A DNA stretch of 64,000 nucleotides, from positions 64,001-128,000 of the forward strand of contig CAWAMW010000016.1 in assembly GCA_963783305.1 (NCBI GenBank), in the 5' to 3' direction. Within the stretch, counting starts at the first letter, position 1; the number at the start of each line of letters is the position of its first letter. The DNA comes from an uncultured Gemmatimonadales bacterium. Lineage in GTDB: Bacteria; Gemmatimonadota; Gemmatimonadetes; Longimicrobiales; RSA9. Below, in pieces: positions 1 to 51,000 of the stretch. The position numbers are program-made.

Positions 1-3000
1 CAGACCGACAACCCCGAGAATCCAGAGCGATACCCGCACGTCCGCCGTCTTGAAGTAGAAGTAGGGAGGGAGGTGAAGGCCGGCGAGGAAGTTGGCGATC
101 CGACGCGACGGCCCCGCGTCGTCGTCCCCGCTCGCGGAGCGCAGCGTGTCCCGCAGCATCGAGAGCGCCACCAGCGAGAGGATGAACACGAACACCGCAC
201 TGATGTACAGGTCCGCGGCGGCCGAGCCGCCCGAGCCGTGACCATCCCCGCCGCTCGCGAACAGTGCGCTGTTGATCCACACCGCCACCCGGATCCCGAT
301 GAACGAGGTCAGGATCAGGAAGGCGCCCAGGCGCTTGTCCACGTTGCCCAGCTCGCCGTGCTTCCGCGAGCCCATCATCGCCTTGCCGAACTTGTGGGCG
401 ATGTTGCTCCCCACCGCCACCACACCCGGCACCCCGAGGTTCATCATCCCAGGGGTCATGAAGAAGGCGCCGCCGCTCCCTATGAAGCCGGACAGAATGC
501 CGCCGATGAGCCCCAGGACCATGACCTGAATGGCGCTGGACAGGTCCAGGGTAACGAAGTTCGAAACCAGGAATGAGCTTTCCATGATCTACTCCATCTT
601 GATCAGCTTCATGACCGACCGGGTCACGGTCCCGTAGGACCAGGCGATGACCGGGATGAAGGCGAAGACGGTGAGGGCGACGAGGAGGCGGCTGATGGCT
701 CCGCCCCTGGCGGCGAGGAACTCGAGTACGGGGACCTGATTGAAGAAGACGGCGAGGTAGAGGATCACGACAACGACCAGGTATCCCACGAGTCGCACGG
801 TGTCGCGCCGGCCGAAGAGGAACTCGGCGCGGAGCTCGTCGACGGTGACGACGGGGACGCGCATCCGGCTGGAGATGGACTCCTGGACCTCGCGGCGCAG
901 CCGCATGCGGGCGGCGGGGTTCTTGTCCAGGAACATGTCGCCCATCACCACGAGGGAATGGGGTACGCCGCTGCAGCAGGTGGAGACCAGGCTCCTGCGC
1001 TGGCCGGTGACCAGGCGGGCGCCTCCGGACTTGCCCAGGCGGGCCAGCTCGGTGAGCGTGGCATCCAGCCCCGGGTCGACCGCGGCGTCCTCCACGTCCT
1101 CCTCGATGCCGCCCGGAGCCGCGAGTATCGAAGGCGCGGCCACAGCGCCGGCCAGCGCGGGCTCCGGTGTGGGCGACGCGACGCCGGAGGCTACGAACCG
1201 GACGAGCTCGACGGCGGCGTTCCATTTCTGGGCGATCTCCACCACGCTGCGGAAGGCTTCGCCGCCCGGATCGAAGCTCTCCTGGATCCAGAGGATGGTG
1301 GTGGAGGCCATGGTGACCGCGATGTTTCTGGCGTCGGGGAGGGTCGCCAGCACGGGCTCGATGTGCGGCGCGACTTCCGCGTCGTGGGGCAGGTAGGTGA
1401 CCGTGAGAGCGCGGTTGTGGGCCGTGGCGGTGAAGCTGAAGCGCCGGGTCCGTGGGTCCTCCGCCAGCAGCAGGCGCGCGCGCGCCGACAGCCGCAGGTC
1501 CTCGAGGGTGCGGCGGGAGGCCGGCGTCATCTGGAACTCGGGGAGCTGGCACATGCCGAGGAGCGACGCCGCCGCGTTGCGGACGTTCATCCGCTCCACA
1601 TTCACCACCACATCGTATTCCGCGGCCTCCTCACCGGACACGCCGTACATGCCGCGGGCCCAGTTCCGCCGGTCTTCCTCGACGGCCTCGAGGTAGCGGC
1701 GGGCCTTTTCGTGGTCGAGGCCGAGGTCGCGCATGGTGGCGGAGATGCGCCCCTCCTCGTCGGCCACCAGCCGCACGCGGAGCACGTGATTGACGCCGCG
1801 TAGCAGGAGGTGCCCGGTCCGGCCGTGATAGACGATCGGACCCTCGAGGGCCCTGTCGCAGAGGTAGGCGGTGCAGAACGCCAGGTAGTGGTCGCGCTCC
1901 CGGGCCAGCCGCTCGGTGAACATCTGCGGCTTCACGATGCTCGTCTCGAGCTTGCTCACCTGGACGCCGGCGAGGATCGCCTCCTCGATCAGCTTCTCAC
2001 GGCTGATCACCGCATAGCCGAGCTTCTCGGCCAGGGTCTCGGCCAGCTCCTTGCCCCGGGACAGCGAGCCTCTGGAAACACAGATAATCTGCATGGTACC
2101 ACTCCTCCCCGGTTCCCGGGGACTCGGAGTTGAAGAGCTCACGGGGGACCGCCGAGCACTGGCATGCCCATGGCCGGCCAGACGAAGCACACGAAGAGCG
2201 CCAGGACGGCCATCAGGAGGAGGCTGGCGGGGACACCGGCGATGAAGAACTCCTTCGTCGTGAACTGGTTGCTGGTGTAGGCGATGGCGTTGGGCGCAGC
2301 GCCGATCAGGAGGAGGAAGGGCATCCCGGCGGTGACGAGACACGCGAAGAGGACAACCTCCGGGGCTACGCCCAGGTAGGGTGCCATGACGAGGGCCACC
2401 GGCATGGTGATGGCGATGGCAGCGACGTTCATGATGAAGTTGGTCATGACCAGCACGAACGCCGCGATGCCGAGGACGAAGACGACCCAGTGGGCGTTCA
2501 CGAAGAGGGACAGCCAGTGGATGGCCAGCCAGGAGGCGGCACCGGTCTCCCACAGGCAGAAGCCGAGGCTCATGGCCCCGCCGAAGAGCAGGATGATGTT
2601 CCACGACGTCTTCTCGAGATCCTCGAGGGAGACGATCCGGAGCACGAAGAAGAGGACGGTGGCGGTGAGGATGATGGCGCTCTTGTCCACCTCGGCCATG
2701 GCCGGCACGAAGTTGCGCACGCTGAGGAGCGTGATGGCCATGAGCACGAGAACGAGAGCCAGCACCTCCTCGCGGGTGATGGGGCCGAGGTTCTCGTGGA
2801 GACGCCGGACCCGGTCGCGGAGCCCCGGGATCGTCTTCCGCTCGGGTGGATACCAGAGCATCATGTACCCCCAGATCAGGAGGGTCATCAGGATGCCCAC
2901 CGGGAACATGAAGAAGGACAGCTCGAAGAAGCCGATGGACCCGCCGGTGATCTGGTTGTAGAAGCCGAGGGCCACGGCACCGCGGGCGGCGCCCAGGAGG

Positions 3001-48000: not shown

Positions 48001-51000
48001 GGCCACGCTGGAAGAGAACGTCGGCCGCATCTCCGAGTTCGTGAAGGAGTTCCTGGACTTCGCCAAGGGCCGGGAGACCGACGTTCGCCCGGTGGATCCC
48101 GACGCCCCCGCTCGGGCCGTGGCGGAGCTGTTCCGCGATCGAGCGGCGCAGGTTGGCGTCCGGCTCGAAACCCGTCTGGCCGGCGGTCCGCTGTTCCCGC
48201 TGGACGAGGAGGGGGTCCACGCCTGCCTTTCGAACCTCGTCTCGAACGCCATCGACGCGTGTACCATGGCGGACCAGGACGGCCGCGAGTTCGTCATCAC
48301 TCTCGCCTCCCGGGCGGAGGAGGACACGCTGGTCTACGAGGTGGCCGACAACGGGGCGGGCATGGACTACGAAATCAGTCGCAAGGTCTTTTCGAAGTTC
48401 TTCACCACCAAGGGCTCCGACCGGGGCACCGGTCTGGGGCTCCTGACGACCAAGAGGATCGTCCACCAGCACGGCGGACAGATCACGTTCGAGACCCAGG
48501 AGGGCGAGGGATCGGTGTTCCGCATCACGCTGCCCAGGCACCGCACTGGCGAGGCCGCGGATGAGGACCGGACCGGCCCCACTCCCCTCCCGATCCAGGA
48601 GGAGGGGTGACCGTATGGTGCGACCGGAAGACAGGACCGTGCTGGTGGTGGACGATGAGCCCAATGTCCGCATCTACCTCGCCCGCATCCTCCAGGACGC
48701 CGGCTTCCGCGTCCGAACCGCCGCCGACGGGTTCGAGGCGCTGGAGATGATCCGCCGCGAGCCGCCGGACTTCATCTCCCTCGACCTGGTCATGCCCCGG
48801 AAGAGCGGCCACAAGCTCCTCTACGAAATGCGAAAGGACCGCACGCTCGCCGACATCCCCGTCCTCATCGTCACGGCCCACGCCCGTGACGAGCTGGGCG
48901 AGGGGGAACTGAGGGAGATCGTGGAGGACCGGGTGATCTCGGGCCCCGGCGTCTATCTCGAGAAGCCCGTCCGGCCGCTGGACTACGTGCGGGCGGTGCA
49001 GCGGGCGGTGGGCGTCACCGAGACGCTCGCGGACGACGACCGGGTCGCGCTCCAGGAAGAGCTGCGAGACGCGCTGCCGGCCGCCGAGCCGCACGCGCTC
49101 CGTCGGGCGCTGGAAGCGCTGAGGAAGGCCCCCGCGGGCGGCGGGGACTCTCCGGATCATTAGACCGCCCGGAAGTGGGAGACCGGAGCATGCCGAGTCA
49201 GGTGGGTATGAGGAAGATCCTCATCGTGGATGACGAGCCCGCGGTGGTCAGCTATCTGGAGATGCTGCTCCAGGACCACGGCTACGCCACCGTAACCGCC
49301 GACGACGGGGAGTCGGCCATGGAGGAGGTGCGGAAGGAGCACCCGGACCTGGTGACGCTGGACATCTCCATGCCAACAGCCAGCGGGACCCGGTTCTACA
49401 AGGCGCTCAAGACGGACCCGGTGCTCGCGAGCACCCCCGTCCTGATCGTCACCGCGGTGACGGGCTACGGCGGGGACCCGTACGGCTACGAGAAATTCAT
49501 CAGCCGCAGCCGGCTCGTGCCGCCGCCGGAGGGGTTCTTCCCCAAGCCCATCGACCGCACCCGCTTCCTCGAGGAGGTGGACCGGCTCCTGCTCCACGCA
49601 GGGGTCTGAGCCCGACGCCGGGGTCAGTCCTCGACCCCGGTCTCCAGCTCCTCATCAGCGAACTCGACGTACACGGTCTCGCCGAACCGGCGGCCGTTCT
49701 TCTCGTCGTGCCGCATGAACTCCGGCGGGTCGATGCGGATCCGGAGCGTGTACTCGCCGTCGCCCGGGATCTGCCAGTTCCGGCCGTAGTGGAAGAGCCA
49801 CGGGTGCCAGAGGAACGGCATGGTCTCCGTGCCCACTTCCTCGCCGTGCTCGTCCAGCAGCGTGAGCTCCACGTTCAGCCCCGGGATGAAGCGGTTGTCC
49901 GCCGCGTCCCGCACGCTGATCTCGATATGGATGTTGCCCTCCGGCTCGTGCCACTCCAGCTCGCCGTCCCTGAGCCGGTACATCCCCTCCGCCTCCTCGT
50001 GGGCGATGGCGACGATGTAGTCGCCCGCGTGCTGCTGCGCGCCGGCGTCGGCCACGTTCTCCACCATGTGCTCCAGCGCCTCCACGTACGCCGAGCCCTG
50101 GGCCCGCGCCAGGTCCAGCTCTTCCGGCTCCGCCTCGTCGCTCTCCTCCATGGGCGGATCGGTCGGGCGCGTCGGGGTGCTCCAGCGGTGGTCCTGCTCC
50201 TGCTCTGACATCGTTCTCCTCGCTCGTTCGAACTCGCGCGTTCCCGCGTCTCGGTTCACACGAGCGGGCGCAGGTGCCGTGCCGCGAGCCGCAGCGCTGT
50301 GCCCCAGGGGTCGCGTACCACCACTCCCTTCCCGGACCGGTGCACCTCGTGCCCGGCGGATTCCAGGCGCCCGGACGCCGCCACCACGTCGGAGGGGGTG
50401 GGGAGGAGCAGCTCCCACTCCAGCAGCCTGGCCTCGTCCGCGCCCGCCGCCGCCGCATCGGCCGCCCACGTGTTCACCCCCAGGTGGTGGTGGTACCCGC
50501 CCGCCGAGAGGAACAACGCCCCAGGGTAGCTCCACACGACCCGGTCCAGCCCGAGCGCGTCGTGATAGAACGCCGACGCCGCCTCCAGCTCACCCACGCG
50601 CAGGTGGACGTGGCCGATCCTCGCCCCCGCCGGCATGCCGCGCCACCGCGCGTCTGCAGCGGCCCGGACCAGCGCGCCGGTGTCCAGGGGCTCCGTCGTC
50701 ATCACGATCTGTCCGTCCCGCTCCCGCCACTCGGCGCGGGGTCGGTCGGCGTAGACCTCGATGGCCAGCCCGTCCGGGTCCTGCAGGTACAGCGCCTCGC
50801 TTACCAGGTGGTCCGATGACCCCGCCGGCTCGCCCATAGCCGCCAGATGACGGACGAACGCACCCAGGCTCGTCCGGTCTGGAAGCAGCACGGCGAAATG
50901 GAACAGCCCGAGCCGTCCCTGGCGCGGCGCCCGAGCCGCCCCCGGCCGCTCGATCAGCTCGACCAGCGACGCGCTCCGAGTCGCGTCTTCGTCTGCCTCG

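What a model noticed while it worked through the whole genome (the two positions that open the first line are those of the whole stretch)
1..49000. Complete dissimilatory sulfate-reduction supercluster in an oxygen-respiring, flagellated, gas-vesicle-bearing Longimicr [...]
One 52-kb stretch holds sat, aprAB, qmoABC, dsrAB, dsrC, dsrMKJOP, dsrN, a DsrL-like NAD(P)H oxidoreductase, siroheme synthesis, an Hmc-like complex, a DASS transporter and two TauE-plus-cytidylate-kinase-like gene sets, in a genome that also encodes at least five haem-copper oxidases, cytochrome bd, nitric-oxide and nitrite reductases, two [NiFe] hydrogenases, a flagellum and gas vesicles. Boldest reading: family RSA9 Longimicrobiales include motile, buoyancy-regulating facultative sulfate reducers that shuttle across oxic-sulfidic interfaces, and the TauE/cytidylate-kinase-like sets are a lineage-specific sulfate or sulfite transport module. 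New would be sulfate respiration in the fourth o [...]
Evidence so far: Gene list g02778-g02828 from NCBIfam/Pfam/Swiss-Prot tables: dsrAB g02799-g02800, DsrL-like g02797, dsrN g02796, dsrMKJOP g02801-g02805, dsrC g02807, sat g02809, qmo g02810-g02812, aprBA g02815-g02816, Hmc-like g02819-g02825 (29-40% to DVU_0531-0534). Oxidases: COX1 genes g00261, g01142, g01438, g03726, g03914; cyt bd g00320-321; NOR g03802-3803; nirK g00716; hydrogenases g03409-g03417; flagellum g01497-g01546; gvp g00660-g00668. relatives.tsv: APS-reductase_C in >=33 of 457 Longimicrobiales, 8 of 72 RSA9, 2 of 6 congeners; neighbours.tsv: TauE next to Cytidylate_kin2 in 33 of 457 of the order (870 genomes overall), close to the counts of the dsr pairs (24-32). 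The survey of 495 marine Gemma The finding spans contig positions 60523 to 113000; this window holds only 64001 to 113000 of it. [...]
(Added by a program. Inside this text positions count along the whole contig: contig position 64,001 is position 1 of the stretch shown here. "Call 12" and the like, gene names such as g00115 and contig names such as C1 are that model's own, and its searches are not shown. The text may have been shortened before it was handed on; [...] marks where a part breaks off. The agent that wrote the report below was given it as the finding of a first reader that could run no searches.)

Follow-up and report, generated by a model that had tools for sequence, protein, structure and literature searches.

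The report
Sulfate-respiration gene supercluster in aerobic Longimicrobiales
An uncultured oxygen-respiring soil or sediment bacterium of the phylum Gemmatimonadota carries, in one 52-kb block, every gene known to be needed to breathe sulfate; this ability was already reported for the phylum but apparently not for this order.

Summary
About 35 co-directional genes on the minus strand encode aprBA, qmoABC, sat, dsrC, dsrT, dsrMKJOP, dsrAB, a DsrD-like protein, dsrL, dsrN, siroheme synthesis, a DASS carrier and two TauE plus kinase-like sets. Rex, a DsrMK-like pair and an Hmc/Tmc-like complex follow.

New here:
- The 82-aa ORF after dsrB is a divergent DsrD: winged-helix model, a bridging sequence, hhalign E 3.3e-4, and the same position in 42 of 80 related loci.
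- DsrL carries the YRR motif of the DsrL-2 type.
- DsrA sits in a Gemmatimonadota clade on the reductive side, apart from phage DsrA derived from sulfur oxidisers.
- No DsrE, DsrH or SoxB was found in the 96%-complete genome.
- A Rex operator lies in front of aprB.

dsrA occurs in 28 of 401 sampled genomes of the order. The kinase-like partner of TauE occurs in 27 of those 28 and in 3 of the other 373. It has degenerate P-loops and is not lineage-specific; this scan had already noted it on other DNA.

The direction of the pathway (reduction, reversal or disproportionation) stays inferred. Sulfate reduction in this phylum has been in print since 2015, so this is a new member of a known kind.

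The parts
1..585 (-). TauE2, a TSUP-family permease. It is cut by the window edge and is 365 aa in full on the contig.
   Evidence: PF01925 E 7e-16. Full gene in L179: E 7e-37.
589..2097 (-). CK2c, a cytidylate-kinase-like protein of 502 aa. Its P-loop reads GSLSRGKE and it ends in two hydrophobic helices.
   Evidence: PF13189 99 bits; sequence read.
2139..3740 (-). DASS-family sodium:anion symporter, the candidate sulfate carrier.
   Evidence: TIGR00785 217 bits, cut-off 199; PF00939.
3770..4297 (-). CBS-domain protein.
   Evidence: PF00571. A homologue lies beside DASS in Planctomycetaceae-labelled locus L075.
4736..8056 (-). Two-component genes: a receiver (4736-5137), a dCache histidine kinase (5127-6884) and a double-receiver protein (6893-8056).
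   Evidence: Pfam.
8517..11131 (-). Siroheme synthesis: cobA-hemD fusion (8517-10088) and sirC-cbiX fusion (10085-11131; its start is uncertain).
10930..11376 (-). 148-aa membrane protein, weakly DUF1634-like.
   Evidence: PF07843 E 0.031. Found after TauE1 in at least 8 of 30 order loci and in L019.
11399..12481 (-). TauE1, a TSUP permease of 360 aa.
   Evidence: PF01925 125 bits. 70-82% identical to 24 order homologues.
12494..13312 (-). CK2b, a cytidylate-kinase-like protein with a BON domain. Its P-loop reads GTKTFGTQ, with no lysine at the Walker A position.
13314..13970 (-). CK2a, a cytidylate-kinase-like protein. Its P-loop reads GTMSGGRI, with arginine where Walker A has lysine.
13980..15392 (-). 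dsrN (siroheme a,c-diamide synthase type).
   Evidence: NF002204 433 bits.
15397..17082 (-). dsrL of type 2, 561 aa.
   Evidence: Domain order Fer4_20, then FAD/NAD(P), then C-terminal 2x[4Fe-4S]. VLYRRT motif. Criteria taken from PMC7596348.
17208..17456 (-). Divergent DsrD, 82 aa, winged helix.
17468..19847 (-). dsrB (17468-18550) and dsrA (18615-19847).
   Evidence: TIGR02066 476 bits and TIGR02064 575 bits. Trees.
19897..24995 (-). dsrMKJOP: dsrP 19897-21060; dsrO 21094-22152 (start uncertain); dsrJ 21941-22312 (3 CxxCH); dsrK 22309 to about 23900; dsrM 24033 to about 24995.
   Evidence: NCBIfam equivalogs, all above cut-off. Haem motifs.
25037..25702 (-). dsrT (RsbRD_N domain).
   Evidence: PF14361. 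Identification of this domain as dsrT follows PMC6018805.
25756..26073 (-). dsrC, with both C-terminal cysteines (CKVAGLPKPTGCV).
   Evidence: TIGR03342; sequence.
26145..26540 (-). OsmC-family protein lying between sat and dsrC.
   Evidence: PF02566. Homologues in L023, L025, L028 and L034.
26554..27816 (-). sat (ATP sulfurylase).
   Evidence: NF003166 484 bits.
27891..32700 (-). qmoC (27891-29108), qmoB (29121-31496) and qmoA (31363-32700).
   Evidence: qmoC NF038018 399 bits. QmoA and QmoB are HdrA-like, and QmoB carries an FlpD domain.
32697..33908 (-). Two conserved genes between aprA and qmoA: a 245-aa protein with a weak CxxCxxCC hit (32697-33434) and a 98-aa zinc-ribbon protein (33612-33908).
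   Evidence: Homologues occur in 12 and 11 of the 92 loci held at that point, where read (e.g. L061) between the aprA and qmoA matches.
34032..36531 (-). aprA (34032-35951) and aprB (36001-36531; its true start is probably near 36468).
   Evidence: TIGR02061 870 bits and TIGR02060 183 bits.
36516..36533 (.). Rex-operator-like palindrome TTGTGAATTTCTTCACGA in front of aprB. Weaker copies lie at 36620-36637 and 37680-37697.
   Evidence: It is one of only 5 sites in the genome within 2 mismatches of the consensus.
36776..37510 (-). rex (redox-sensing repressor).
   Evidence: NF003994 199 bits, cut-off 130.
37689..40411 (+). DsrM-like gene (37689-38666) and DsrK-like gene (38591-40411).
   Evidence: DsrK 323 bits, below the cut-off of 400. 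Close homologues lie beside dsrAB in L006, L010, L013, L016 and L021, four of them labelled Acidobacteriota.
40396..41775 (+). PAS-domain sigma-54 activator (start approximate).
42100..47463 (+). Hmc/Tmc-like membrane complex: NifX-like gene (42100-42498), HmcF/TmcB-like (42502-43953), TmcC/HmcE-like (43996-44697), HmcB-like (44700-45503), and HmcC-like fused to a hexahaem cytochrome c (45496-47463).
   Evidence: all below cut-off. Six CxxCH motifs.
46964..49609 (+). PAS histidine kinase plus two DVU0259-like receiver proteins (48561-49163 and 49175-49609).

Best explanation
The block is an intact gene set for Dsr-dependent dissimilatory sulfur metabolism of the reductive bacterial type. It belongs to a Longimicrobiales bacterium that also respires oxygen.

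The most likely working is as follows; the steps come from what is established for the families, and none was measured here.
1. Under anoxia, sulfate enters through the DASS carrier and/or the TauE permeases.
2. Sat makes APS.
3. AprBA reduces APS to sulfite with electrons from quinol through QmoABC.
4. DsrAB, which needs siroheme made and amidated by the cobA/sirC genes and dsrN, reduces sulfite together with DsrC.
5. DsrMKJOP reduces the DsrC trisulfide to sulfide.
6. The 82-aa protein is a divergent DsrD that activates DsrAB.
7. DsrL-2 feeds NADPH electrons to DsrAB.
8. Rex, bound in front of aprB, holds the set off until NADH/NAD+ rises, that is, when oxygen runs out.

The three kinase-like proteins have degenerate P-loops and membrane-binding tails. 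They are probably non-catalytic nucleotide- or anion-sensing partners of the TauE permeases.
For: Gene content
- All core genes score above curated cut-offs and have open frames.
- DsrC keeps both C-terminal cysteines. DsrJ has 3 haem motifs.

DsrA type
- The best solved relatives are reductive enzymes, at 511-558 bits.
- Of 594 DsrA relatives in species genomes, the best 80 are Gemmatimonadota (76-80% identity), Planctomycetota, Acidobacteriota, Zixibacteria and Thermodesulfobacteriota. They include cultured Desulfofustis glycolicus and Desulforhopalus singaporensis.
- In the tree, the window lies in a 20-row clade (SH-aLRT 99): 18 Gemmatimonadota rows, the window among them (6 named so, 11 from genomes of its order), and 2 nested Planctomycetota.
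- 14 phage DsrA (sampled from 46 full-length ones; 41-46% identity) are split from all 37 cellular rows by a branch with support 100. Phage dsrA derive from SUP05 sulfur oxidisers (PMC8190135, passages).

DsrD
- 1193 homologues.
- Structure model with pLDDT 88, a winged helix.
- Solved DsrD 1ucr matches at Z 8.0, rmsd 3.1 over 69 residues, 20% identity.
- The family follows dsrB in 42 of 80 loci, and canonical PF08679 DsrD holds the same place in 27 others.
- The L036 ORF hits both profiles, at 2.5e-30 and 4.1e-7.
- hhalign gives E 3.3e-4 over 67 columns.

DsrL
- Domain order and the YRR motif are as defined for DsrL-2 (PMC7596348).

Oxidation markers
- No DsrE, DsrH or SoxB was found.

Rex
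- The operator in front of aprB is one of 5 such sites in 4.35 Mb. The only perfect site lies 40 bases before the genome's second rex gene.
- Rex represses sat in Desulfovibrio vulgaris until NADH rises (PMC7531388, passages).

Kinase-like partner
- Its CK2b type is found in 27 of 28 dsrA-bearing genomes of the order and in 3 of the other 373.
Against: - Gene content cannot tell reduction from disproportionation or from reversal. Desulfurivibrio and cable bacteria, which oxidise sulfide with reductive-type DsrAB and DsrD, are in the same tree (PMC10591310 and PMC6018805, passages).
- DsrL-2 also occurs in oxidisers (PMC7596348).
- The genome has many oxidases, which would suit sulfide oxidation.
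- The DsrD link is weak at sequence level: no Pfam or PDB sequence hit, hhalign probability only 38.5%, and 1ucr ranks 34th among generic winged helices.
- No named oxidative-type cellular DsrA was in my trees. The phage set stands in for it by inference.
- The Rex consensus I scanned with is recalled, not taken from a tool.
- There is no expression data.
- Related genomes are not independent, so the co-occurrence counts overstate the support.
Confidence: 0.62

Rival explanations
1. The same enzymes run mainly in reverse, or in both directions. Sulfide or sulfur would be oxidised to sulfate through DsrAB, AprBA and Sat, with electrons passed to oxygen or nitrate, as in Desulfurivibrio alkaliphilus and cable bacteria.
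For: - COX1-family matches at six or more loci, plus cytochrome bd.
- Motility and gas-vesicle genes suit life at an interface.
- DsrL-2 and DsrD occur in such organisms (PMC7596348 and PMC6018805, passages).
- Desulfurivibrio and Electrothrix DsrA are on the same side of the tree.
Against: - No DsrEFH and no SoxB were found. SQR was not tested.
- Rex logic (derepression at high NADH) fits an electron sink better than an electron source.
- The nearest lineages are read as reductive in the literature (PMC10591310).
Confidence: 0.22
2. The set serves disproportionation of thiosulfate, sulfite or sulfur, or sulfite/organosulfonate respiration, rather than sulfate respiration.
For: - Genomic rules cannot separate disproportionators from reducers (PMC6018805, Table 2 passage).
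- TauE-family carriers are known as sulfite/sulfonate exporters (PMC3949148 and PMC5840216, passages).
Against: A full sat-aprBA-qmoABC module and a DASS carrier are co-transcribed in direction with dsr, which is needed only if sulfate is a substrate or product.
Confidence: 0.12
3. The block is foreign DNA mis-binned or mis-assembled into this genome.
For: It is a metagenome-assembled genome with 1.51% estimated contamination.
Against: - The contig is 803 kb.
- G+C is even at 64-73% across the window.
- The same DsrA clade occurs in 27 other sampled genomes of the order, including 3 of 6 congeners.
Confidence: 0.02

Closest known systems
Gemmatimonadetes bin SG8-17 (Baker et al. 2015, PMC4411801) and marine Gemmatimonadota Groups 2 and 3 (PMC11316326)
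   Same: Same phylum, with the full set sat, aprAB, qmoABC and dsrAB. DsrAB form a phylum-linked clade, called DSR-J in 2015. My tree also gives one Gemmatimonadota clade.
   Different: - Here the host is in Longimicrobiales (Group 4), which the 2024 text does not list among the dsr-bearing groups.
- All genes lie on one contig in one block.
- DsrD, DsrL type, Rex and the TauE/kinase-like sets are worked out here.
Peatland Acidobacteriota dsr loci (Hausmann et al. 2018, PMC6018796; seen only in a search listing and as cited in PMC10591310)
   Same: - The order dsrAB, 82-aa DsrD type, dsrL-2, dsrN.
- The aprBA, zinc-ribbon gene, 245-aa gene, qmoABC arrangement, and DsrMK-like pairs.
- Organisms with oxidases.
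   Different: - A different phylum.
- In Gemmatimonadota and two Planctomycetota-labelled loci, dsrC-dsrT-dsrMKJOP lies directly upstream of dsrAB, with an OsmC gene after sat.
Candidatus Thermonerobacter thiotrophicus (Kapabacteria), as described in PMC10591310
   Same: DsrD plus DsrL-2 with aa3 and bd oxidases. There, in-situ transcripts showed dsr expressed in the anoxic night.
   Different: No expression data here. A different phylum and habitat.
Desulfovibrio vulgaris Hildenborough pathway, DsrD (PDB 1ucr) and the Rex-sat circuit
   Same: The same enzymes. A winged-helix DsrD follows dsrB. Rex controls an early step of the pathway.
   Different: - D. vulgaris has no DsrL.
- Its canonical DsrD motif YWSSGSTT reads YTYFGGSF here.
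- The Rex site is at aprB, not sat.
- The Hmc/Tmc-like genes here score below the equivalog cut-offs and lack the 16-haem HmcA.

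Membership tests
Reductive-type dissimilatory sulfate reduction (rules of Anantharaman et al. 2018, Table 2, PMC6018805) | aprBA and sat present | tested here: met
   TIGR02061 870 bits, TIGR02060 183 bits and NF003166 484 bits, all above cut-off.
Reductive-type dissimilatory sulfate reduction (rules of Anantharaman et al. 2018, Table 2, PMC6018805) | DsrAB cluster with reductive DsrAB | tested here: met
   The window is on the same side as cultured sulfate reducers and is split from SUP05-phage DsrA with support 100. Caveat: the tree held no named cellular oxidative-type reference.
Reductive-type dissimilatory sulfate reduction (rules of Anantharaman et al. 2018, Table 2, PMC6018805) | dsrD present | tested here: met
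   A divergent form; see the DsrD rows.
Reductive-type dissimilatory sulfate reduction (rules of Anantharaman et al. 2018, Table 2, PMC6018805) | dsrEFH absent | tested here: met
   PF04077 and PF02635 gave 0 matches in the 95.96%-complete genome.
Reductive-type dissimilatory sulfate reduction (rules of Anantharaman et al. 2018, Table 2, PMC6018805) | Sulfide actually produced from sulfate | not testable with these tools
   Needs culture, tracer or transcript data. No RNA run was listed.
DsrD (Pfam PF08679) | Match to the family model above its gathering score | tested here: not met
   No hit at E up to 10 and none in the genome. Family members L036, L047 and L033 give sub-threshold hits of 17.9, 14.5 and 13.5 bits.
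DsrD (Pfam PF08679) | Homology shown by profile comparison and intermediates | tested here: met
   hhalign E 3.3e-4 over 67 columns, probability 38.5%. The L036 ORF hits both profiles.
DsrD (Pfam PF08679) | Winged-helix fold of about 80 aa, encoded directly after dsrB | tested here: met
   Model pLDDT 88. 1ucr at Z 8.0, tied with many generic winged helices. The position is shared in 42 of 80 loci.
DsrD (Pfam PF08679) | Activates DsrAB | not testable with these tools
   Needs an enzyme assay as in PMC8794893.
DsrL-2 (Loeffler et al. 2020, PMC7596348) | N-terminal ferredoxin, FAD with embedded NAD(P) domain, linker, C-terminal 2x[4Fe-4S] ferredoxin, in an organism with dsrAB | tested here: met
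   PF14691 at 36-125, PF07992 at 140-431, PF14697 at 510-560. The gene lies after dsrAB-dsrD.
DsrL-2 (Loeffler et al. 2020, PMC7596348) | YRR motif in the NAD(P) site | tested here: met
   VTVLYRRTLQEMP.
DsrL-2 (Loeffler et al. 2020, PMC7596348) | Placement in subcluster 2C; arginine at the cluster-ligand position | not tested
   No DsrL tree was built. The N-terminal alignment did not let me assign the ligand position safely.
Cytidylate kinase and related P-loop kinases | Walker A GxxxxGK[ST] | tested here: not met
   CK2a reads GTMSGGRI, CK2b GTKTFGTQ and CK2c GSLSRGKE. They match PF13189 (89-106 bits), but no NCBIfam kinase model at E up to 1e-5.
TSUP / TauE-SafE permeases (PF01925) | Match to the family model | tested here: met
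   125 bits and 128 bits. Substrate not testable here.
Hmc and Tmc complexes of Desulfovibrio | Equivalog-level match of subunits, and the multihaem HmcA or TmcA | tested here: not met
   All subunits are below cut-off. There is no separate cytochrome gene; a hexahaem domain is fused to the HmcC-like subunit.
Rex regulon | Rex protein and an inverted-repeat operator upstream of a target | tested here: met
   NF003994 199 bits, cut-off 130. Operator sites. The consensus is recalled; binding was not tested.

The most novel reading that the evidence does not exclude
The Gemmatimonadota-type block may be a sulfate-respiration regulon built for life with oxygen.
- Rex would open it when NADH rises.
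- The DsrD variant carries two cysteines conserved across the family (C47 in 37 of 42 rows and C60 in 34 of 42). These could make the DsrAB activator a thiol redox switch.
- The lysine-less kinase-like proteins, with BON or membrane tails, would gate the TauE permeases. Those permeases would then be the long-sought sulfate or sulfite carriers of non-Desulfobacterota sulfate reducers.
Probability: 0.15. Interest if true: 0.7.

Novelty: new member of a known kind. Interest (0 to 1): 0.45.

Why it matters
- It adds an order of mostly aerobic, widespread soil and sediment bacteria to the organisms that may make or consume sulfide. About 7% of the sampled species of that order carry the genes.
- The DsrD marker used in surveys (Pfam PF08679) misses the form present in Gemmatimonadota, Acidobacteriota, Planctomycetota and others. 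Such genomes can therefore be wrongly scored as 'dsrD absent' and read as sulfur oxidisers.
- It gives three bench-testable parts: the DsrD variant, the Rex site at aprB, and the TauE/kinase-like pair.

Tried and rejected
- Complex prediction of TauE1 (residues 78-360) with CK2b gave no verdict (score 0.00). It is no evidence either way.
- Sequence searches of the 82-aa protein and its profile against solved structures found no DsrD. Foldseek gave only generic winged helices at E 0.025 or weaker.
- My first Rex scan used a wrong 6-base spacer and found nothing.
- A strict sigma-54 promoter pattern found nothing.
- The terminator and promoter scan was at chance level.
- The 50%-identity representative search for DsrA returned mostly fragments. 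Cluster names identified only a Desulfobaccales and several archaeal clusters, and gave no named oxidative type.
- Phage records held no DsrH that could have labelled them by context.
- Supplements of PMC11316326, which may list dsrAB per genome for Group 4, could not be read.
- I could not place the DsrL arginine/cysteine ligand position.
- SQR, nirK and NOR were not searched in the genome.

Full report
**What is there.**
The window has about 69% G+C, so I called genes by third-position G+C bias and named them with Pfam and NCBIfam.

From 36531 down to 1, and on to contig position 63488 outside the window, roughly 35 genes run on the minus strand with short gaps, in this order:
- aprB, aprA
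- a 98-aa zinc-ribbon gene and a 245-aa gene
- qmoA, qmoB, qmoC, sat
- an OsmC-family gene
- dsrC, dsrT, dsrM, dsrK, dsrJ, dsrO, dsrP, dsrA, dsrB
- an 82-aa ORF, dsrL, dsrN
- two cytidylate-kinase-like genes (CK2a, CK2b), TauE1 and a DUF1634-like gene
- sirC-cbiX and cobA-hemD
- three two-component genes, a CBS gene and a DASS carrier
- a third kinase-like gene (CK2c) and TauE2

rex lies just upstream of aprB. On the plus strand follow a DsrM-like and a DsrK-like gene, a PAS/sigma-54 activator, an Hmc/Tmc-like set whose HmcC-like subunit is fused to a hexahaem cytochrome, a kinase and two receivers.

All core enzymes score above NCBIfam's curated cut-offs. The Hmc/Tmc-like and second DsrMK-like genes do not. 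DsrC ends in CKVAGLPKPTGCV, with both functional cysteines.

**The 82-aa ORF.**
It has no Pfam hit and no PDB sequence hit, alone or as a profile. PF08679 finds nothing in the genome.

It nevertheless has 1193 homologues, and the best 120 are at least 73% identical. An AlphaFold model from 30 of them is a confident winged helix, pLDDT 88.

Against 48,161 solved chains, DsrD of Desulfovibrio (1ucr) aligns at Z 8.0, rmsd 3.1 over 69 residues. It ties the highest identity shown among rows covering most of the model (20%), but ranks 34th among generic winged helices.

Synteny and intermediates decide the matter:
- In 80 DsrA loci from species genomes, this family follows dsrB in 42.
- Canonical DsrD, confirmed by Pfam in 5 of 5 tested, holds the same place in 27 others.
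- One Desulfobacterales ORF (L036) hits both profiles, at 2.5e-30 and 4.1e-7.
- A profile-profile comparison that leaves L036 out aligns 67 columns in register at E 3.3e-4, probability 38.5%.
- The known motif YWSSGSTT (PMC8794893, passage) aligns with YTYFGGSF.

I read the ORF as a divergent DsrD. Across the 42 rows (the window and 41 loci), C47 is kept in 37 and C60 in 34. The canonical set usually has one cysteine (25 of 27); in the one hhalign pair printed it lies at another position.

**DsrL.**
The 561-aa protein has the domain order required by Loeffler et al. (PMC7596348, passages) and the YRR motif that marks DsrL-2. The dsrAB-dsrD-dsrL-dsrN order recurs in most loci of the Acidobacteriota/Zixibacteria/Gemmatimonadota side of the tree.

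**Type of DsrAB.**
- Solved relatives are all reductive enzymes, at 511-558 bits.
- The best 80 of 594 relatives are Gemmatimonadota (76-80% identity), Planctomycetota, Acidobacteriota and others (66-75%), and Thermodesulfobacteriota (55-62%).
- In a quick IQ-TREE of 92 rows, the window sits in a 20-row clade (support 99): 18 Gemmatimonadota rows, the window among them (6 named so, 11 from genomes of its order), with 2 Planctomycetota nested. This clade lies inside a 60-row clade (99) opposite 32 rows, 29 of them Thermodesulfobacteriota.
- As a stand-in for the oxidative type I fetched phage DsrA (56 loci, 37-46% identity, 41-46% for those matched over most of their length). Kieft et al. trace these to SUP05 sulfur oxidisers (PMC8190135, passages). 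14 of the 46 full-length ones are split from all 37 cellular rows with support 100.
- DsrE, DsrH and SoxB were not found in the 95.96%-complete genome.

By the published rules (PMC6018805, Table 2 passage) this is the 'sulfate reduction' pattern. The same table says it cannot be told from disproportionation. Desulfurivibrio and cable bacteria, which run such enzymes backwards, are on the same side of my tree.

**Regulation.**
A near-perfect palindrome, TTGTGAATTTCTTCACGA, lies at 36516-36533, at the start of aprB. Two weaker copies flank rex.

In the whole 4.35-Mb genome only 5 sites come within 2 mismatches of the Rex consensus, which I recalled from memory. The one perfect site lies 40 bases before the second rex gene on contig 11.

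In Desulfovibrio vulgaris, Rex represses sat until NADH/NAD+ rises (PMC7531388, passages). The same logic here would switch the pathway on when oxygen is gone.

**Host and spread.**
The genome also has COX1-family matches at six or more loci, cytochrome bd, three GvpA matches, flagellin, and two [NiFe] hydrogenase large subunits on the same contig.

dsrA occurs in 28 of 401 sampled genomes of the order (26 of them above the family cut-off):
- own family 9 of 72
- a second family 18 of 257
- a third family 0 of 71
- own genus 3 of 6
- 15 of 127 genera

Five of five dsrA-bearing relatives tested have COX1.

**The TauE/kinase-like sets.**
All three strong PF13189 genes of the genome lie in this block. 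Their P-loops are degenerate: GTMSGGRI, GTKTFGTQ and GSLSRGKE. CK2b ends in a BON domain and CK2c in two hydrophobic helices.

In the order:
- PF13189 at E up to 1e-15 is found in 54 of 401 genomes. One of them, G002, is unpublished and counts only in this tally.
- 27 of the 28 dsrA-bearing genomes have it.
- 29 genomes have two or more matches, and 26 of those carry dsrA.
- The third family has a separate single-copy type (20 of 71) and no dsrA.
- The CK2b type proper occurs in 30 of 401: 27 of 28 with dsrA and 3 of 373 without, one of the three being a 72%-complete congener.
- CK2a, CK2b and TauE1 stand in tandem in 25, 30 and 26 of the 30 loci.

So the link to dsr within the order is real, although related genomes are not independent. 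The module is not lineage-specific:
- TauE and the DUF1634-like gene also lie beside dsrN in a Planctomycetaceae-labelled locus.
- Earlier notes of this scan describe the pairing in about ten phyla.
- TSUP carriers were already proposed as sulfate carriers of sulfate reducers (PMC5840216, passages).

**What is in print.**
- Baker et al. 2015 reported a complete pathway in Gemmatimonadetes bin SG8-17 (PMC4411801, passages).
- Gong et al. 2024 reported it in 21 of 100 Group 3 and 16 of 85 Group 2 genomes. They equate Group 4 with Longimicrobiales without naming it among the dsr-bearing groups (PMC11316326, passages; supplements unreadable).
- The main text of the 2023 review of sulfate reducers does not contain the word Gemmatimonadota (PMC10591310).
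- Full-text searches for 'Longimicrobi' with 'dsrA' (3 papers) and 'Longimicrobiales' with 'sulfate' (14 papers) gave no paper linking the two in the passages I read.

**Verdict.**
This is a new order-level member of a known kind. Its useful by-products are a DsrD form that Pfam misses, a Rex site at aprB, and a dsr-linked permease/pseudo-kinase module that is still untested.

Noticed in passing
window 32697-33908: A 98-aa zinc-ribbon gene and a 245-aa gene with a weak CxxCxxCC (YkgJ-type) hit lie between aprA and qmoA. Homologues occur in 11 and 12 loci labelled Acidobacteriota, Myxococcota or Pseudomonadota, plus a Desulfurivibrio hit for the larger gene. No function is known.
   Followed up: partly
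window 26145-26540: An OsmC-family (peroxiredoxin-like) gene lies between sat and dsrC. Homologues occur in the four Gemmatimonadota- or Planctomycetota-labelled loci that reach that far upstream (L023, L025, L028, L034).
   Followed up: partly
genome contig C11 106370-107021: A second rex paralogue (36% identity) has a perfect Rex-consensus palindrome 40 bases upstream, which looks like autoregulation.
   Followed up: partly
genome contig C16 202678-204312: A second full-length DsrL-like gene (42% identity over 564 residues) lies about 120 kb from the dsr block. Its context was not examined.
   Followed up: no
L016, L017, L021, L050, L067 (Acidobacteriota-labelled loci): dsrAB is followed directly by dsrL. 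Neither the 82-aa DsrD type nor canonical DsrD was detected between them.
   Followed up: no
window 54822-57887: A 1021-aa UPF0182-family membrane protein (894 bits), unrelated to the sulfur block.
   Followed up: no
window 54370-54771 and 59554-61923: A DUF326 cysteine-rich protein, and a 789-aa protein joining fn3 and He_PIG repeats to a leishmanolysin-type (M8) peptidase domain.
   Followed up: no
genome contig C7 18643-19978: One COX1-family gene matches in two adjacent frames (profile positions 2-117 and 121-436). This suggests a frameshift or an assembly error.
   Followed up: no
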